Shown piece by piece: positions 12,806-64,000 of a stretch of DNA of 64,000 nucleotides. Source of the stretch: a phage; the sequence record PZ445487.1, one strand, 5' to 3'. How positions within the stretch are numbered: the first letter of the stretch is position 1; each line of letters begins with the position of its first letter. The position numbers and the translations under genes are program-made. The notes beneath the pieces are model-generated. The model saw nothing but the letters and a program-made list of their open reading frames with translations. It was not told where the DNA came from and ran no database searches.

Positions 12806-12839
12806 ACGGGGTTTACTTCTTCAATAAACCCCGTATACT
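12806..12839 (+). promoter_or_regulatory. Hairpin overlapping a sigma70-type early promoter (PeSL-like cassette)
   Basis: Stem acggggttt/aaaccccgt; -35 gtttac (about 12811-12816), 17-nt spacer, -10 tatact (about 12834-12839); conserved leader ataagcag...gaaatgaaggaactacatcATG follows. Confidence 0.5.
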
Positions 12840-17584: not shown

Positions 17585-19084
17585 ATGTCTGAGATCCAAA
17601 TAGTCAAAGTGAACGAAGTTAGAATGCGGATCCTTGCCGAGGATTATATCCGTGAAGAACTCAACGATTACTTCAAATTTGAAGATCCTAATTTCCAACC
17701 GAATCCGTTCAGTAAATGGGACGGCGTAGTGCGGTTGTTCACAAAGAGTTCTGGGCTTATCGACATCGGCCTGTTATTTGAGGTGTTCAAATTCTGTAAG
17801 ATGAACGGTTACACCATCAAATTAGATCCGGCCTTAAAATATATTCAAGATATTCCGGATGAAGAAATTCATGCGTTCATCGATACATTGAATGCGGTGT
17901 ACCGAGACGAAAACAAACAATATCAAAAAGCGATTGTCCGCGATTATCAATTTGATTCCGTTACCACAGCAATACGCCAAAGCAGATGTGTCCTCGAAGC
18001 TGCCACGAGTGCTGGCAAATCCTTTATTTTGTACATCATGGCGCGTTACTACAGGCAACGCAGAGATGCCATCGAAAGTAATCTGAGGACGTTAATCGTT
18101 GTACCATCCATTCATTTGGTGACTCAGTTGTATGACAACTTCGAAGAATATAGCCACGGGACAGAATGGAAACCATTGATGAATGTCCAGACAATATACG
18201 AAGGGGCAACGAAAGAGATTTTCAAACCCATAGTTATTTCAACTTGGCAAGGTATCCAGAACCAACCCAAAGAGTGGTTCCATCAATTTGGAGATATCGT
18301 CGTCGACGAAGTACATACATCAAAATCAGATAAATTGTCTTACATCTTGAATAACTGTATTAACGCTGATCAACGTTTGGGAGTAACCGGAACCCTGGCG
18401 AATACAAAGGTCGCAGGGTTACAAGTCGTTGCTCACTTTGGCGCATATCATAAAATTATTACAGCGCGCGATTTAATCGATCTAGGATATGCGGCAGACA
18501 TCAATGTTAATATGATTGAAGTCATACATCCTATGGCAGACTGTATTGAAATGCACGGTGCTGAGTATCAAAAGGAAATAGAATTTCTCATTGCTAACGA
18601 ACGCCGCAATGAATTGATAGCCCGAATGGCTCTGTCTTTGAAAGGGAACGTGGCGGTCATGTTCGAACGTATCGATGCACACATGATGTTGGTTTATGAA
18701 ATGCTATCGGCAGTCAAGAAAAACGTATTCGTCATCAACGGGGAAGTCAAGACAGAAGTTCGTAAACAGATTCAGGCTGCTATGGAAGAAGGGGAAGATA
18801 TAACACTGTTGGCATCATATGGTACTATGCAACAGGGCGTATCTATCAAAAAACTCCATCATCTGATATTGGCCCATCCCAGCAAATCTTATATCCGTGT
18901 TATACAGACATTGGGGCGTTTGATGCGTCAGCATTCCTCTAAGGATGTTGCGCGAATCTGGGACCTGGTAGACAACCTGCGCTACAACGGTTCCTACAAC
19001 CATGCTCTCAGGCATTCTCATGAGAGATATAAATTTTATCTTATGGAGCGCCACCCTGTTAAAATGAAAAAAGTGGCGCTCTAA
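17585..19084 (+). CDS. uvsW: UvsW-like SF2 DNA/RNA helicase
   Basis: Walker A ATSAGKS, DEVH box IVVDEVHT, motifs TGTL and QTLGRLMR; about 500 aa, similar in length and motif order to T4 UvsW. Confidence 0.85.
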   Translation: MSEIQIVKVNEVRMRILAEDYIREELNDYFKFEDPNFQPNPFSKWDGVVRLFTKSSGLIDIGLLFEVFKFCKMNGYTIKLDPALKYIQDIPDEEIHAFIDTLNAVYRDENKQYQKAIVRDYQFDSVTTAIRQSRCVLEAATSAGKSFILYIMARYYRQRRDAIESNLRTLIVVPSIHLVTQLYDNFEEYSHGTEWKPLMNVQTIYEGATKEIFKPIVISTWQGIQNQPKEWFHQFGDIVVDEVHTSKSDKLSYILNNCINADQRLGVTGTLANTKVAGLQVVAHFGAYHKIITARDLIDLGYAADINVNMIEVIHPMADCIEMHGAEYQKEIEFLIANERRNELIARMALSLKGNVAVMFERIDAHMMLVYEMLSAVKKNVFVINGEVKTEVRKQIQAAMEEGEDITLLASYGTMQQGVSIKKLHHLILAHPSKSYIRVIQTLGRLMRQHSSKDVARIWDLVDNLRYNGSYNHALRHSHERYKFYLMERHPVKMKKVAL

Positions 19085-19089
19085 CCATT

Positions 19090-19455
19090 TCAAATATCTT
19101 GATTCACATAGGCGGGGGTTGCCTCGCCTTCTTTGTTGGAACCAAATAAACAGTCGATCGTGCCAATACATTGTTGTAGCACTTTCGGCTCAAGAATCTG
19201 AGAAAACAATTCTTCATTGGATGCCAGCAATGGAACAACTTTCACTTCCCGCGCCTGGCCTTGTTGAATAATGCCAACATATAGACCTTTGTTATTTGGG
19301 AGTAATGGTATCACCAACATCGGTGACACAATAAACCCCGATGTACAGAAAAGGCTTTGTAAATAAACGCCTTTAAATGACGGACGTTGTTCTGCTATGG
19401 AAAGAATTACTTCTTGGTCTTCCCCTACTGCGTATAAACCAACAAATTGCTTCAT
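19090..19455 (-). CDS. Hypothetical protein (121 aa), opposite strand
   Basis: Only ORF in an otherwise non-coding 700-bp stretch after uvsW; weak SD (gaga); could be spurious. Confidence 0.3.
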   Translation of the reverse strand: MKQFVGLYAVGEDQEVILSIAEQRPSFKGVYLQSLFCTSGFIVSPMLVIPLLPNNKGLYVGIIQQGQAREVKVVPLLASNEELFSQILEPKVLQQCIGTIDCLFGSNKEGEATPAYVNQDI

Positions 19456-19794
19456 ATATTATTTCTCACGTGTTAGCAAACTTGACTACATAATAATGTC
19501 ATGCTCTGTTTAGACCAAATAAAATATTTTACTTGTTGAATAAAAATCGCTTTCTTGTTGAACAATCCGTGCGTAATATACGAGTTGTGAGCTTTGCGAG
19601 CAACGAGTATTATCACGAGCGAAGCGAGTAGACTGATAAAGAAAGGTTTTATTAAAACAGAATATTATAAATGCCGTCAGGCATTTATTTATCGCGCGTA
19701 GGGCAATTTATCACTTGTTCTATAACTACAAACACGCGATACTAATTTGCGTCAAATATGACTTGAACCCCACTATATTTTGAGGATACAACTA
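19456..19794. other. Long AT-rich non-coding region with short repeats upstream of gene 45
   Basis: About 340 bp without an ORF; direct repeats cttgttgaa (x2) and cgagc(a)acgag / cgagcgaagcgag; hairpin aaatgccgtcaggcattt next to tataaat. Confidence 0.4.
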
Positions 19795-20463
19795 ATGCAA
19801 GAGATCACTCTCTCCGAACGCACTTTACAACTGCTGGCTAACTTTGAAACCATCTGCCCCTCTATCGTTCTGGCACCTGGTAAAAAGTTACGCACTGTTA
19901 ACGATTCCAGTACAGTTATCGCTATTGCCGACATTGACGAAGACTTCCCGTTCGAATTCCCGATTCTGGATCTGACCAAATTGCTGGCAATCCAGCGTCT
20001 GCCGAGTTTTAAAGGCGGTAAAATTGAAATGTCGGAAGACCACATTTTGCTGAAAGGTGAAAACTCCCAACTGCAATTCTGGCGTTCCGCTAAAGAACTG
20101 ACTGTCGTTCCGGCAGACAGCATCGATCTCCCGTCTGTAGAATTTGAAGCAACAGTCACTCCTGAAAAAATGAAAGAGCTGACTCGCGCCTGTTCTACTC
20201 TGGGCCACAAAACTGTACGCCTGGTGGCCAGCGGCGGTAAAACTCGTCTGGTGGGCACGACCACTACTATCGATAATTCCAACGATTACACTGTTGAGTT
20301 GGGTGAAACAACTCTGGGTGATTTTGCTATGCCTGTTGATGTGGTCAACCTGAAAATGATCGAAGGCAACTACGTGATCCGCGCCTGTGCCGAAATGCAA
20401 CTGGTTAACTTCCAATCCGCAGATGGCACCATCAACTATTACGTCGGCATGCAGCTGGATTAA
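19795..20463 (+). CDS. 45: Sliding clamp (gp45-like)
   Basis: 222 aa; N-terminus LSERTLQLLANFETICPS parallels T4 gp45 LSKDTTALLKNFATINSG; followed by the clamp-loader genes. Confidence 0.85.
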   Translation: MQEITLSERTLQLLANFETICPSIVLAPGKKLRTVNDSSTVIAIADIDEDFPFEFPILDLTKLLAIQRLPSFKGGKIEMSEDHILLKGENSQLQFWRSAKELTVVPADSIDLPSVEFEATVTPEKMKELTRACSTLGHKTVRLVASGGKTRLVGTTTTIDNSNDYTVELGETTLGDFAMPVDVVNLKMIEGNYVIRACAEMQLVNFQSADGTINYYVGMQLD

Positions 20464-32068: not shown

Positions 32069-32098
32069 GTTTACTTCTATAAGGCAAATGCGTATTAT
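32069..32098 (+). promoter_or_regulatory. Sigma70-type early promoter
   Basis: -35 gtttac, 18-nt spacer, -10 tattat, about 50 nt upstream of the ATG at 32150. Confidence 0.45.
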
Positions 32099-48189: not shown

Positions 48190-48232
48190 AGGGGCAAAAG
48201 CCCCTTTACTTCTTCAATAACCCACGTATAAT
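48190..48232 (+). promoter_or_regulatory. Hairpin overlapping a sigma70-type early promoter (PeSL-like cassette)
   Basis: Hairpin aggggc-aaaa-gcccct; -35 ctttac, 17-nt spacer, -10 tataat; conserved leader ataagcag...aggaactacattATG follows. Confidence 0.5.
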
Positions 48233-54059: not shown

Positions 54060-54089
54060 CTTTACTCTTAAATAATCATGCACTATTAT
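54060..54089 (+). promoter_or_regulatory. Sigma70-type early promoter
   Basis: -35 ctttac, 18-nt spacer, -10 tattat; a hairpin (ggcgg...ccgcc, about 54101-54121) and the leader ...ggaattacatcATG follow. Confidence 0.45.
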
Positions 54090-60482: not shown

Positions 60483-60529
60483 AGCCCCTCATTGAGGGGC
60501 TTTACTTTTGAAACCTTTCCGCCTATACT
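60483..60529 (+). promoter_or_regulatory. Hairpin overlapping a sigma70-type early promoter (PeSL-like cassette)
   Basis: Hairpin agcccctc-att-gaggggct; -35 ctttac, 18-nt spacer, -10 tatact; leader ...aatagcaggaactatatcATG follows. Confidence 0.5.
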
Positions 60530-61278: not shown

Positions 61279-61617
61279 ATGTACAAATTCCCGATATTAG
61301 AAACAGTGTACTCTGTTCACAAAAAGGAAGGTCCATTATTTGAAAATTTGGATATTCTGTTAAAGGAAAATGTCCGTATCCCTCTGGTTCTAAAGGGAAA
61401 GCAAATAGGATATAGCCATGACTGCCAAATAATGCGTTCTGAAGGCACCGACGTCTTACGCATCCGTCTGACATTTGTGTTGACAGGTAATCTGGACGGT
61501 ATGGTGGTTAATCTGAAACCAACCACCATAGTCCACAGAACGGGTGGGAAAATATTATATCGTTTATTAACTCATTTTGAGTTGGTGACAAAATGCTCTG
61601 CCACGGACGTTCTTTAA
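61279..61617 (+). CDS. Hypothetical protein (112 aa)
   Basis: ORF immediately after the preceding gene. Confidence 0.4.
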   Translation: MYKFPILETVYSVHKKEGPLFENLDILLKENVRIPLVLKGKQIGYSHDCQIMRSEGTDVLRIRLTFVLTGNLDGMVVNLKPTTIVHRTGGKILYRLLTHFELVTKCSATDVL

Positions 61618-62062: not shown

Positions 62063-63688
62063 TCATGCGCCTTTACCACCAAAATTGCCGCCGTTATCCT
62101 CTAACTCCGGTTTTATATCAATTGGACCTGGGCCTGTAGTTGTTACAGGAGTTGCCCCCGCACGTGAGGCGGCGCGGCCAGCGCCTTCAGCATATTTGAT
62201 GTTGCCTTCAATAGTCTGTGCAACCGATAATTTATCACAAATTATTTCAGTTGCCAGTATCTTAGGAACCTTCAAAGTGTTAGACACTTCAAACATTTCA
62301 CAGATGAGACGCAACACGTTCTGTGCCTGTATCTCAGCCAATTGGGAAAATTTCATCAACGCTGTTCCAGCGACCACATTGGAATAGTTAGAAGAGTGTA
62401 AGTGGTAAACTTCTCCTTTCTTGCGCTGTACTTCAGTCCCACCAATTGTCAGGTTATGATCACCCCCCACATAATAACGTTTGTCGAACATCGTCAGGTC
62501 ATAATGATCTTTGACTGATTTATTAACAACATCACCGTCAGGAAGCATTTGCTTGTAAGACCCAGAAGAGTGCATCCAATGCAAACGTTCCCCGCCTGGA
62601 GTGTCATCGACCTCCATAATATGCCCAGCTCGAGAAGCCATAACATTGTTGTATGGATAACGAGACCCTCCAGCCGAAGGAACCGATACCTCTCCTGTGT
62701 TGTCAATATCCTGAACACGACCAGAAGGAGGCGGTGTTTCTTGGACTTTCGGGGTACGATCTGGAATAGGTTCAGACCATTTACCGTTTTGTTGTGCCGG
62801 AGCTGCTGAAGCTGTAGTTGCTGGACCTGGCCAACGATAACCCAACACGGATGAGCGGCTAAAACGGCTCACCTTCACAGAATCGGATTGGTTTCCCCCG
62901 ATACACCAAACGTAGTTGGCGTCAAATTTCTGAACGAATGCAACGTGACCGAATGTCGGGTTGTTCCCGCGCCGGAACACTACAACAGCGCCGTAACGTG
63001 GTTCTGACAGAGGAGACCCCCATTGTAAATATGAACGAGCCAAAGCAGAACGTGTTGATGTATATCCGGCCTGTATCAGAACCCATCCGACAAACGACGC
63101 ACACCAACTAACTTCATCTTCTGACGCCCCCAGGGAAGTTGTCTTATGATATTCCAATATCCTTGGGTTGTTATTGAACTTACCAGAATATTCTTTGACA
63201 CCCAATTCCCCACGAGCCACGGTCATCCACTTCTCAGGATCATATCCGTCTACTGGTGGTTGTGGATCCGGTTGCGGTTCATCCTCAATCTTAACAGGAA
63301 CATTCTCGACGGCATTATACTTCTGCCTTTCTATAGATTGAACGACCTGACCCAGCGCCAATGGGTTTGTATCTGACCCATCTGTTGGTGTTGCTGCTGG
63401 CCATACCCATGCAATACGGATGTTCTGATATGCTTCATCCAAAGCAAACCCCATGACGTCAGAGCCGACAGTGATACCCGTCGGAGACCAGCCTAAACCT
63501 GCCGAGGAGGCGTTAGATGCTGGCATAAGCATTTTACCCCAAGGCAATAATTCTGTAGGCAGGAGAGTGGTATCCTCCGTGTGTACCCCATAGATGCGTA
63601 CTGCGACGCGCCCGTTTTGATCGGGATCATTCACGTCTTCAACGCGCCCGTAAAACCAACGCAAGTTGTCTAACATATTGAAACCCAT
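62063..63688 (-). CDS. 5: Baseplate hub/tail-associated cell-puncturing protein gp5-like, with CHAP-type domain
   Basis: Minus strand; N-terminus LRWFYGRVEDVNDPDQNGRVAVRIYGVHTEDTTLLPTELLPWG parallels T4 gp5; central SWCASFVGWV and GHVAFV give Cys/His of a CHAP fold; C-terminal VGGDHNLTIGGTEV beta-helix-like repeat. Confidence 0.8.
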   Translation of the reverse strand: MGFNMLDNLRWFYGRVEDVNDPDQNGRVAVRIYGVHTEDTTLLPTELLPWGKMLMPASNASSAGLGWSPTGITVGSDVMGFALDEAYQNIRIAWVWPAATPTDGSDTNPLALGQVVQSIERQKYNAVENVPVKIEDEPQPDPQPPVDGYDPEKWMTVARGELGVKEYSGKFNNNPRILEYHKTTSLGASEDEVSWCASFVGWVLIQAGYTSTRSALARSYLQWGSPLSEPRYGAVVVFRRGNNPTFGHVAFVQKFDANYVWCIGGNQSDSVKVSRFSRSSVLGYRWPGPATTASAAPAQQNGKWSEPIPDRTPKVQETPPPSGRVQDIDNTGEVSVPSAGGSRYPYNNVMASRAGHIMEVDDTPGGERLHWMHSSGSYKQMLPDGDVVNKSVKDHYDLTMFDKRYYVGGDHNLTIGGTEVQRKKGEVYHLHSSNYSNVVAGTALMKFSQLAEIQAQNVLRLICEMFEVSNTLKVPKILATEIICDKLSVAQTIEGNIKYAEGAGRAASRAGATPVTTTGPGPIDIKPELEDNGGNFGGKGA

Positions 63689-63709
63689 TAGTCAATTAGA
63701 ATCATGTGA

Positions 63710-63717
63710 TATTTATG
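63710..63717 (-). promoter_or_regulatory. Late-promoter-like CATAAATA upstream of gene 5
   Basis: Minus-strand cataaata (7 of 8 match to TATAAATA) about 22 nt upstream of the gp5 ATG. Confidence 0.3.
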
Positions 63718-64000
63718 GCGGGGATTTGAAATCTGTCGAATAATATATTATAGGAAGCTCTGCTTCCGTTCAACCTTTATTCTTTTCGTTCCTACTCGCT
63801 GAAGCTCGTAACACCGCCTTGACAGGCAGTCCCATTCCAATGCCATGGAGGCATAAAGGCGAGGAAAATACTGTACACCTCAGAACATGCGTAGAAAAGG
63901 ATTATTTTTGCTTCAAAACAAATTCAAACCCCAATTACACAACACTTACTTCAGCAACAACGGTGTTATAGCAATTTAAGGTTAAACGTTCCTGTCTTAA

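What the first reader, a model, noticed from the sequence alone, without database searches (positions are those of the whole stretch)
19456..19794. 340-bp non-coding region with short direct repeats between uvsW and gene 45
This is the largest ORF-free stretch in the window. It is AT-rich and contains repeated cttgttgaa and cgagc-acgag-like units plus a hairpin next to tataaat. In T4 a replication origin lies near the uvsY/uvsW region, so this could be an origin or recombination hotspot, or it may encode a small RNA.
Basis: inference. Interest (0 to 1): 0.45.

Follow-up and report, generated by a model that had tools for sequence, protein, structure and literature searches.

The report
Conserved folded RNA element upstream of clamp gene
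The 339-base gap before the sliding-clamp gene of phage CBA120 (a ViI-like phage, not T4) holds three likely promoters and a strongly conserved two-hairpin element that is probably an undescribed structured RNA, with one or two sister copies elsewhere in the genome.

Summary
Window 19456-19794 is a real, AT-rich (34% GC), non-coding spacer with the described repeats and hairpin. The window is Escherichia phage CBA120 (Kuttervirus, Ackermannviridae), not T4. The left neighbour is an unannotated 121-aa gene on the minus strand, not uvsW.

The spacer is 72-79% identical across four genera, about as conserved as gp45. The "cgagc/acgag" units are the arms of two hairpins, H1 (19578-19610) and H2 (19615-19629), interrupted by tandem G·A internal loops. 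Base pairing is kept by compensatory changes: 100% of cells paired and 4 covarying pairs in H1. A model built from this element finds one more copy in the CBA120 genome, upstream of baseplate gene gp6. A third, partial copy lies upstream of the gp5-like hub gene, inside this window at 63794-63854 (minus strand). Those copies carry an extra covarying pseudoknot module.

No Rfam family matches. No small ORF is conserved. The "cttgttgaa" repeats lie in promoter-like blocks.

Best reading: a composite control region with a new promoter-proximal structured RNA; its mechanism is unknown. A T4-type origin is not supported, but an origin is not excluded. One conflict is unresolved: the predicted -10 overlaps the base of H1.

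The parts
19490..19518 (-). Predicted sigma70-type promoter P121 for the divergent 121-aa gene: -35 TTGGTC (19518-19513), 17-nt spacer, -10 TATTAT (19495-19490).
   Evidence: Both hexamer blocks are conserved in 11 phages of 4 genera. The spacer varies in sequence but keeps a fixed length (alignment A1). The hexamers were read from the sequence. Inferred, not mapped.
19523..19565 (+). Two tandem 22-bp units holding CTTGTTGAA (19532-40 and 19554-62), with an A-tract at 19542-46. They are variants (TTGTTGAATAA / TTGTTGAACAA) of the phage's recurrent promoter-associated motif TTCTTCAATAA.
   Evidence: 5 matches in the window against 0.93 expected.
19551..19579 (+). Predicted promoter P_A: -35 TTTCTT (19551-56), 17-nt spacer, -10 TAATAT (19574-79).
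   Evidence: It has the same geometry (A-tract, 27 nt, then the -10) as the conserved promoter upstream of paralog B. The -10 is TAnTAT in all genera. The start site is not mapped, and the -10 overlaps the base of H1.
19578..19610 (+). Hairpin H1: ATAC-GA-GTTGT-GA-GC-TTT-GC-GA-GCAAC-GA-GTAT. Three stems are separated by two tandem G.A internal loops.
   Evidence: Across A and B copies, 12 pairs are 100% paired in 111 cells. Four pairs changed on both sides. None of 500 shuffles reaches the covariation score, and slid controls give 21-68% paired. It is the minimum-energy fold of the + strand only.
19615..19629 (+). Hairpin H2: AC-GA-GC-GAA-GC-GA-GT. It has the same YGAGC...GCGAR motif as the top of H1. 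The loop varies (GAA, GTA, AAA, TTCA, or an extended stem in paralogs).
   Evidence: The pair C-G changes to U-A in Aglimvirinae. Four pairs are 97.5% paired.
19630..19666 (+). AT-rich spacer, variable in sequence and length between genera (indels of 19-21 nt).
   Evidence: Alignment A1, columns 205-255.
19667..19688 (+). Hairpin H3 (ATAAATGCC-GTCA-GGCATTTAT) followed by TTATC.
   Evidence: I9. It is kept in Kuttervirus and Aglimvirinae. Taipeivirus has a different hairpin at the same place (AATAGAT-TA-ATCTATT). The scan flags it as terminator-like only in the minus orientation.
19693..19698 (+). CGCGCG box, present downstream of both A and B elements in every genus. It can pair with the 5' arm of H2 as an alternative fold.
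   Evidence: Support for the long-range pairing is weaker than for local H2 (3 of 11 sequences break one pair).
19715..19743 (+). Predicted gp45 promoter P45: -35 TTGTTC (inside the invariant CACTTGTTCTATAA), 17-nt spacer, -10 GATACT.
   Evidence: The two blocks are invariant in all 11 sequences, and the spacer is variable in sequence with a fixed length. The -10-to-ATG distance of about 50 nt is typical of this phage's other promoters. Inferred.
19744..19794 (+). gp45 5' leader with ribosome-binding site GAGGA (19782-19786). The ATG is at 19795.
63794..63854 (-). Paralog C, cut off from its full context by the window's end: helix X, pseudoknot, helix Y and an H2-type hairpin (ACGAGC-TTCA-GCGAGT). 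It lies upstream of the gp5-like hub/lysozyme gene.
   Evidence: In the B/C module, 16 pairs are 100% paired, and 4 pairs are compensatory, one of them a pseudoknot pair.
63753..63898 (-). Context of paralog C: promoter-like TTTTCT (63898-93), N17, TACAGT (63875-70). After the element comes a terminator-like GGAAGC-AGA-GCTTCC (63767-63753) plus TATAATAT, then a late-promoter-like CATAAATA.

Best explanation
The spacer is a composite control region of an Ackermannviridae phage.

Shown: it is non-coding. It is about as conserved as the neighbouring essential gene gp45. Its core (19578-19629, + strand) folds into two hairpins, H1 and H2, whose stems are interrupted by tandem G.A internal loops and are kept by compensatory changes. 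The same module recurs once more in every related genome examined from Kuttervirus, Agtrevirus, Limestonevirus and Taipeivirus (B, upstream of gp6), and a partial copy (C, upstream of the gp5-like gene) was found in Kuttervirus. B and C carry an inserted pseudoknot module.

Inferred: three sigma70-type promoters share the spacer. P121 fires leftward. P_A fires rightward, just before H1. P45 fires rightward, about 50 nt before the gp45 ATG. The H1-H2 module is transcribed rightward as RNA, and hairpin H3 marks its end or a checkpoint.

Conservation sits in the stems and G.A loops. The terminal loops and linkers vary. The module therefore most likely works as a protein-recognition RNA, not as a base-pairing antisense RNA.

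My committed mechanism is a promoter-proximal structured RNA that acts in one of two ways. (a) It acts on its own transcription complex or transcript, setting how much transcription passes H3 and later intergenic terminators into the gp45-44-62-regA cluster (about 0.3). (b) It is released as a stable RNA of about 100 nt that binds a host or phage protein (about 0.3).
For: - Identity and context.
- Conservation: the spacer is 72-79% identical to CBA120 across genera, against 76-82% for gp45, 70% for the helicase and 55% for the 121-aa ORF.
- H1: 100% of 111 cells paired, 4 compensatory pairs, 0 of 500 shuffles.
- H1+H2 in A-type copies, including Erwinia phage Bue1: 99.3% paired, 3 compensatory pairs.
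- B/C insert: 100% of 128 cells paired, with a covarying pseudoknot pair.
- G.U pairs and G.A loops make sense only on this strand. The + strand minimum-energy fold is exactly H1+H2; the - strand fold is not.
- The covariance model finds only A and B in the 157-kb genome (B at 44 bits, E 3.7e-8).
- H1 occurs exactly twice per genome in IMG/VR Ackermannviridae.
- Divergent relatives (gp45 53-56% identical) keep H1/H2 while the rest of the spacer has diverged.
- Promoters: conserved hexamer blocks, variable spacers of fixed length, and shared geometry between P_A, P_B and P_C.
- Paralog C sits between a strong upstream terminator and its own terminator-like hairpin, as expected of a separate small transcription unit.
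- No conserved ORF. No Rfam match.
Against: - There is no expression data. No transcriptome of any Kuttervirus was found.
- The fold of element A is not unusually stable (z = -0.88).
- The best -10 for P_A (19574-79) overlaps the 5' base of H1. A start near 19586 would delete the 5' arms of H1's outer and middle stems, yet the outer stem covaries. The start site, the promoter call or the RNA assumption is therefore wrong somewhere.
- H3 is a weak terminator. Paralog B lacks a clear terminator outside Kuttervirus.
- Much of the covariation rests on few independent events (genus-level splits and the A/B duplication).
- Tandem G.A pairs and GNA triloops (GCGAAGC) are also classic stable single-stranded DNA motifs (my own knowledge).
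Confidence: 0.55

Rival explanations
1. Replication origin that uses folded single-stranded DNA. A transcript from P_A forms an R-loop over H1-H2 and the AT-rich spacer. The displaced + strand folds into the G.A hairpins, which stabilise the bubble or recruit the helicase loader or primase. Copies A, B and C would be multiple origins, as T4 has several.
For: - The -10 overlap fits better if the folded strand is DNA opened from about -11.
- An AT-rich, sequence-variable spacer follows the hairpins.
- There are 2-3 copies per genome in large intergenic regions next to promoters.
- GCGAAGC and tandem G.A are known very stable DNA motifs, and ColE1-type origins combine an R-loop with hairpin assembly sites on the displaced strand (my own knowledge).
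- The phage encodes RNase H, a gp59-like loader and a UvsW-like helicase.
Against: - No replication evidence is available.
- With DNA parameters the fold is marginal (-3.5 kcal/mol, z = +0.99).
- A covarying pseudoknot and frequent G.U-type pairs are typical of functional RNA.
- Terminator-like hairpins after A, B and C in Kuttervirus suit RNA genes.
- T4 oriF/oriG need a MotA-type middle promoter, and no homologue of the T4 early/middle regulators was found in this phage (PMC3184105).
Confidence: 0.15
2. A purely double-stranded DNA control region. The repeats are binding sites for RNA polymerase or for phage or host DNA-binding proteins, and the apparent hairpins are by-products of operator-like symmetry.
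For: - Three promoter-like blocks lie in the spacer.
- CTTGTTGAA copies are 22 bp apart, two helical turns.
- TTCTTCAATAA-type motifs recur at other promoters.
- The phage encodes HU-like and other DNA-binding proteins.
Against: - Every interruption of the symmetry is G-A opposite G-A (5' to 3' on each arm) in all three internal loops and in both paralogs. That is an RNA or single-strand structural motif, not operator symmetry.
- Substitutions are compensatory, including U.G to U-A, and loop sequences and lengths are free.
- The B/C module has a pseudoknot.
Confidence: 0.1
3. The spacer encodes one or more small proteins.
For: Mechanical ORFs of 20-47 codons exist on both strands, and some were annotated as hypothetical proteins in a few relatives.
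Against: - Most of the ORFs start at TTG or GTG.
- None keeps frame, length and start across genera.
- Indels that are not multiples of three fall inside them.
Confidence: 0.02

Closest known systems
HK022 put RNAs (putL/putR), factor-independent antiterminator RNAs
   Same: They are short phage RNAs made of two stem-loops with bulges and non-canonical pairs. Two sequence-related copies per genome lie downstream of different early promoters, and putL lies immediately after its promoter. They act through structure, on RNA polymerase (PMC9378689). Here there is a two-hairpin module of about 52 nt with G.A pairs, in 2-3 related copies. Each sits just after a conserved promoter and before terminator-like hairpins. 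The phage has no known middle-mode or antitermination factors, and its gene cluster is full of internal terminator-like hairpins.
   Different: No sequence relationship was shown. No evidence exists of RNA polymerase binding or of terminator read-through. Copies B and C sit upstream of late genes that have their own late-type promoters, which is odd for an early antiterminator. The predicted start of the element A transcript would truncate H1.
T4 oriF (uvsY) / oriG R-loop origins
   Same: A promoter is followed by an AT-rich segment in a large regulatory region of a T4-related replication and recombination gene neighbourhood. Several copies exist per genome.
   Different: T4 origins use a MotA-dependent middle promoter plus an unwinding element, and have no conserved hairpins (my own knowledge). 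No homologue of the T4 early/middle regulators, including AsiA, was found in this phage. The region is not in or beside uvsY. Its hallmark is a covarying folded element.
PeSLs, composite terminator/early-promoter cassettes of T4-like phages
   Same: They are repeated intergenic regulatory cassettes that combine a stem-loop with an early promoter of the TTTACW-N17-TAYWAT type (PMC4122927). CBA120 has such cassettes elsewhere (GGGG-TTTACTTCTTCAATAA-CCCC-G-TATACT). The CTTGTTGAA units resemble their TTCTTCAATAA segment.
   Different: PeSLs are many and short, have G/C-rich stems, and lie in hyperplastic regions. H1/H2 occur 2-3 times per genome in core regions, have G.A-interrupted stems downstream of the promoter, and are conserved across genera.
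T4 gene 32 mRNA leader pseudoknot and other phage leader structures
   Same: Each is a conserved structured RNA upstream of a replication gene, followed by an unstructured AU-rich stretch. Paralogs B and C contain a compact H-type pseudoknot.
   Different: Element A has no pseudoknot and lies upstream of gp45's own predicted promoter. No autoregulatory protein is implicated.

Membership tests
T4-type R-loop origin (oriF/oriG) | MotA-dependent middle-mode promoter (MotA box at -30) | tested here: not met
   The promoter-like blocks are of the CTTT(T)CT-N17-TAnnnT and TTGTTC-N17-GATACT types. [quoted passage not shown]
T4-type R-loop origin (oriF/oriG) | DNA unwinding element downstream of the promoter | tested here: inconclusive
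   A 37-nt AT-rich spacer of variable sequence (19630-19666) follows H1/H2. This is compatible with an unwinding element but not specific to one.
T4-type R-loop origin (oriF/oriG) | Persistent RNA-DNA hybrid and replication initiation in vivo | not testable with these tools
   Needs marker-frequency analysis, 2D gels or R-loop footprinting.
HK022 put-type antiterminator RNA | RNA of about 70 nt made of two stem-loops with bulges and non-canonical pairs | tested here: met
   H1+H2 span 52 nt, with 15-16 pairs and three tandem G.A loops, supported by covariation. Definition from PMC9378689.
HK022 put-type antiterminator RNA | Located downstream of an early promoter, in the sense direction of the operon | tested here: inconclusive
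   Conserved promoter-like blocks lie directly upstream of A, B and C. The start sites are unmapped, and the -10 of P_A overlaps the base of H1.
HK022 put-type antiterminator RNA | Two related copies per genome behind different promoters | tested here: met
   A and B are present in every genome examined, and C was found in Kuttervirus.
HK022 put-type antiterminator RNA | Binds the RNA polymerase beta-prime zinc-binding domain and suppresses terminators | not testable with these tools
   Needs in vitro transcription or read-through reporters.
HK022 put-type antiterminator RNA | Sequence homology to put | not tested
   No put sequence was available for comparison. The Rfam scans gave no match of any kind.
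PeSL cassette | G/C-rich stem-loop coupled to a TTTACW-N17-TAYWAT early promoter, in many copies in hyperplastic regions | tested here: not met
   Region A has no G/C-rich stem-loop at its promoters. H1/H2 occur 2-3 times per genome in conserved core contexts.
Any Rfam 15 family | Covariance-model match | tested here: not met
   Only chance-level hits with E up to 10 for A. None for B. Chance-level only for C. No gathering-score hit in the whole window.
Intrinsic terminator (H3) | G/C-rich stem followed by a U tract on the transcribed strand | tested here: inconclusive
   The stem has 9 bp with only 3 G-C pairs. The U-rich run is partly inside the stem. The scan flags it only on the minus strand. 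A different hairpin holds the same place in Taipeivirus.
Small protein gene | ORF conserved in frame, start and length | tested here: not met

The most novel reading that the evidence does not exclude
H1/H2 and their paralogs are a new class of factor-independent (put-like) RNAs that bind RNA polymerase. ViI-like phages, in which no MotA/AsiA-type regulators have been found, would use them to carry early or middle transcription through the many intergenic terminators of their long co-directional gene blocks. If so, they would supply the regulator of prereplicative transcription that the CBA120 genome paper could not identify.
Probability: 0.15. Interest if true: 0.8.

Novelty: new variant of a known kind. 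Interest (0 to 1): 0.6.

Why it matters
- ViI-like phages (CBA120, Det7, SFP10, LIMEstone and others) are used in biocontrol and as a structural model. Their early and middle gene control was declared unidentifiable by informatics in 2011 (PMC3184105).
- This work gives concrete candidates, each with exact coordinates and mutations that would test it. They are three promoter calls in the gp45 spacer, a small promoter class shared with other loci, and a covariation-supported structured element with 2-3 copies per genome that is absent from Rfam.
- If the element controls transcription of the replication-gene cluster, it fills a gap in T4-superfamily regulation.
- If it is a protein-binding small RNA, it is a new phage RNA family.
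- If it is a folded-DNA origin, it would be the first origin defined in this family.

Tried and rejected
1. T4-based reading. Rejected: the window is CBA120.
2. Rfam. Nothing was found for A, B, C or the whole window.
3. Small ORFs. They are not conserved.
4. Thermodynamic significance. Element A is not more stable than shuffles (z = -0.88 as RNA, +0.99 as DNA), so the case rests on covariation and conservation. B reaches z = -2.6.
5. A generic scan for "stem-GA-stem-loop-stem-GA-stem" was far too permissive. Counts in shuffles ran to about 200-270.
6. The single metagenome scan and the single genome-collection scan were wasted on a mis-specified pattern (one base too many). They returned only chance hits with no H2. 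Distribution outside viral collections is therefore untested.
8. The pattern GGCGGTNTTACGAGC was also unspecific, but it recovered the C copies.
9. Vibrio Ackermannviridae have a spacer of similar length with other hairpins and no H1/H2.
10. The promoter-like site TTGTGA-N17-TATTAT inside H1 is not conserved outside Kuttervirus.
11. Long-range pairing of the H2 5' arm with the CGCGCG box, predicted by RNAalifold and by several minimum-energy folds, has weaker support than local H2.
12. TATAAAT as a late promoter. The phage's late-type motif is CTAAATA, 40-48 nt before the ATG. The TATAAAT here lies 128 nt upstream and is not kept in Taipeivirus.

Full report
**What the window is**

A 601-base query around the finding is 100% identical to Escherichia phage CBA120 (Kuttervirus, Ackermannviridae). 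The window is the reverse complement of record positions 46302-110301 and differs from the record at two bases. This is a ViI-like phage, not T4.

Local gene order:
- UvsY-like gene, exonuclease, UvsW-like helicase (ends at 19084).
- A 121-aa gene on the opposite strand (19090-19455). CBA120's record does not annotate it, relatives do, and it matches phrog_4255 of unknown function.
- The 339-base spacer.
- gp45 (ATG at 19795), gp44, gp62, regA.

**Checking the observation**

- GC is 34% against 45% for the window.
- CTTGTTGAA occurs twice, 22 bp apart, with a third variant. The window holds 5 copies against 0.93 expected.
- YGAG units cluster in 19581-19628.
- A perfect 9-bp hairpin lies at 19667-19688 next to TATAAAT.
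- The spacer is the largest ORF-free stretch lying wholly in the window. The only annotated gap of equal size is an unannotated 112-aa ORF. The window's end cuts into a 518-bp gap.

**Conservation**

The spacer alone finds 273 phage records, and 271 of them cover at least 80% of it. They include Limestonevirus, Agtrevirus and Taipeivirus at 74-80% identity.

Global identity to CBA120 across genera:

| Segment | Identity |
|---|---|
| Spacer | 72-79% |
| gp45 | 76-82% |
| Helicase 3' end | about 70% |
| 121-aa ORF | about 55% |

No small ORF keeps frame, start and length across genera. The constraint is therefore on the nucleic acid itself.

**What the repeats are**

In an 11-genome alignment the cgagc/acgag units are invariant.

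RNAalifold and single-sequence folding place them in a hairpin:

H1 = ATAC-GA-GTTGT-GA-GC-TTT-GC-GA-GCAAC-GA-GTAT (19578-19610)

H1 has three stems separated by two symmetric loops in which G-A faces G-A (5' to 3' on each arm).

A second, smaller hairpin has the same motif:

H2 = AC-GA-GC-GAA-GC-GA-GT (19615-19629)

Counts on H1 from ten distinct sequences, including the paralog:
- 12 pairs, with 111 of 111 cells paired.
- Four pairs changed on both sides (A-U/C-G, A-U/U-A, C-G/U-A, C-G/U-A).
- None of 500 shuffles reaches the covariation score.
- Slid controls give 21-68% paired.

For H1+H2 in ten A-type sequences, including Erwinia phage Bue1 (gp45 56% identical), 99.3% of cells are paired and 3 pairs are compensatory.

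Loops and the H1-H2 linker vary freely in sequence and length.

The fold is strand-specific. The G.A loops and U.G pairs would be C.T and A.C on the other strand. The + strand minimum-energy fold is exactly H1+H2, and the - strand fold is not.

A caveat: the fold is not more stable than shuffled sequence (z = -0.88), so the support comes from evolution, not from thermodynamics.

**Sister copies**

Searching the whole CBA120 genome (assembled) gave two further loci.

- **Copy B.** A second H1 lies at record 133.3 kb, minus strand, in the 352-bp divergent spacer upstream of baseplate gene gp6.
- **Copy C.** An H2-type hairpin lies in the 518-bp spacer upstream of the gp5-like hub gene. In the window this is 63794-63809, minus strand.

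A covariance model built only from A-type sequences finds exactly A and B in the 157-kb genome, with B at 44 bits and E 3.7e-8.

In IMG/VR, the H1 pattern matches 36 stretches. All but one lie on contigs of about 152-162 kb, nearly always twice per genome. The exception is a 6-kb fragment that carries H1/H2 upstream of a gp45 gene.

Between H1 and H2, copy B carries a 48-nt insert. Copy C has the same insert without H1.

The insert folds as helix X, a pseudoknot between the loop of X and a downstream ATGG, and helix Y. All 128 cells are paired, and 4 pairs are compensatory, including the pseudoknot pair A-U/C-G.

C copies were found only in Kuttervirus. H1's outer stem differs between copies but stays complementary:

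| Copy | Outer stem |
|---|---|
| A | ATAC/GTAT |
| B | CTTC/GAAG |
| B, Aglimvirinae | CTTT/AAAG |
| A, Bue1 | ATATTC/GAATAT |

None of A, B or C matches any Rfam family. No transcriptome or description of these elements was found in the literature searches.

**The rest of the spacer**

Three blocks show the classic promoter signature: two conserved hexamer regions around a spacer that varies in sequence but keeps its length.

- **P121** fires leftward: TTGGTC-N17-TATTAT.
- **P_A** fires rightward: A-tract, TTTCTT, N17, TAATAT, ending at 19579.
- **P45** fires rightward: TTGTTC-N17-GATACT, about 50 nt before the ATG.

P_A has the same geometry as the strongly conserved promoter upstream of B (A-tract, 27 nt, then the -10). 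It resembles the one upstream of C. The motif CTTTTCTA-N16/17-TAnnAT also occurs at two other intergenic sites.

Late-type promoters in this phage read CTAAATA, 40-48 nt before the ATG. The TATAAAT in H3 is unlikely to be one.

H3 is a weak terminator-like hairpin. Taipeivirus has a different hairpin at that place.

A CGCGCG(AG) box follows both A and B in every genus. It can pair with the 5' arm of H2 in predicted folds, but with weaker support than local H2.

**Interpretation**

The evidence best fits a structured, strand-specific RNA module placed just after a promoter and before the next gene's own promoter. It recurs at two or three heads of transcription units.

Because stems and G.A loops are conserved while terminal loops and linkers are not, I infer recognition by a protein, not antisense pairing.

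I cannot decide between a cis-acting element and a released small RNA.
- A cis-acting element would work on elongation or termination. The closest analogue is HK022 put: two stem-loops of about 70 nt, with two related copies behind early promoters (PMC9378689).
- A released small RNA is favoured by copy C, which sits between a strong terminator and its own terminator-like hairpin.

The gene cluster after gp45 has many terminator-like hairpins between co-directional genes. The CBA120 paper itself cites a suggestion that antitermination may matter in T4 relatives that lack middle-mode signals.

**Unresolved conflict**

The -10 of P_A overlaps the base of H1. A normal start near 19586 would remove the 5' arms of H1's outer and middle stems, yet the outer stem covaries.

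Three resolutions are possible: the start lies upstream, the outer stem matters only in read-through transcripts, or the folded strand is DNA.

The last option keeps an origin-type rival alive. In that model the displaced strand of an R-loop folds into G.A hairpins, and GCGAAGC is a well-known stable DNA mini-hairpin (my own knowledge). DNA-parameter folding is weak, and the pseudoknot argues for RNA.

**Limits**

- No expression or replication data exist for this phage family in the sources searched.
- The covariation rests on few independent events.
- The two large-collection scans were lost to a pattern error.
- Vibrio members of the family lack H1/H2. The element is therefore confined to the enterobacterial branch and the Erwinia branch.

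Noticed in passing
window 61279-61617 (+): The other 340-bp "gap" in CBA120's annotation is completely filled by an intact 112-aa ATG ORF that the RefSeq record does not annotate.
   Followed up: partly
window 19090-19455 (-): A 121-aa ORF is missing from the CBA120 record (orf164 is absent) but is annotated in relatives and matches phrog_4255 (E 1.8e-60). It evolves fast, at about 55% nucleotide identity across genera.
   Followed up: partly
window 63677-64000 (-), continuing to record 46108: This is a 518-bp spacer upstream of the gp5-like hub/lysozyme gene. In order it holds a strong terminator, a CTTTTCTAC-type promoter, paralog C (pseudoknot module plus H2), a terminator-like hairpin and a late-type CATAAATA.
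   Followed up: partly
L017 23105-23456 (record 133104-133455, minus strand), outside the window: Paralog B sits upstream of gp6: H1, a 48-nt pseudoknot insert, then H2 with an extended stem in Kuttervirus. It is preceded by a very conserved promoter block (AAACTACTTTTCTA...ACTGTATnnT).
   Followed up: partly
window 12812-12839, 32070-32098, 48205-48232, 54061-54089, 60501-60529 (+): Strong early-type promoters TTTACT-N16/17-TATAMT, several of them wrapped in or preceded by G/C stem-loops (for example GGGG-TTTACTTCTTCAATAA-CCCC). They resemble the PeSL terminator/promoter cassettes of T4-like phages.
   Followed up: no
window, 40-48 nt upstream of the genes starting at 2264, 7032, 8251 and 17585, and at 63725-63731 (-): The motif C(T/A)AAATA recurs upstream of structural genes. 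It is probably the late promoter that the 2011 genome paper said was unidentified. It also precedes the helicase gene.
   Followed up: no
window 45472 and 54070: These are the only two single-base differences between the window and NC_016570.1.
   Followed up: no
L005 1-832 (Dickeya phage RC-2014): The UvsW-like helicase gene is split by an HNH endonuclease insertion just upstream of the conserved spacer. This is consistent with the intron reported in LIMEstone uvsW (PMC3296691).
   Followed up: no
L384 1190-1494 and L385 1170-1494 (Vibrio Ackermannviridae): The helicase-gp45 spacer is again about 300-350 nt and AT-rich. It holds a promoter-like site and position-conserved but sequence-different hairpins, one of them TGATTGC-GAA-GCAATCA. 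It has no G.A-loop hairpins and no opposite-strand gene of 121-aa size.
   Followed up: partly
window 19605-19610: GAGTAT, a -10-like NANNAT, is invariant in all A-type copies about 20 nt downstream of the predicted P_A start. putL has a -10-like pause element at +23 to +28 (PMC9378689). This may be coincidence.
   Followed up: no
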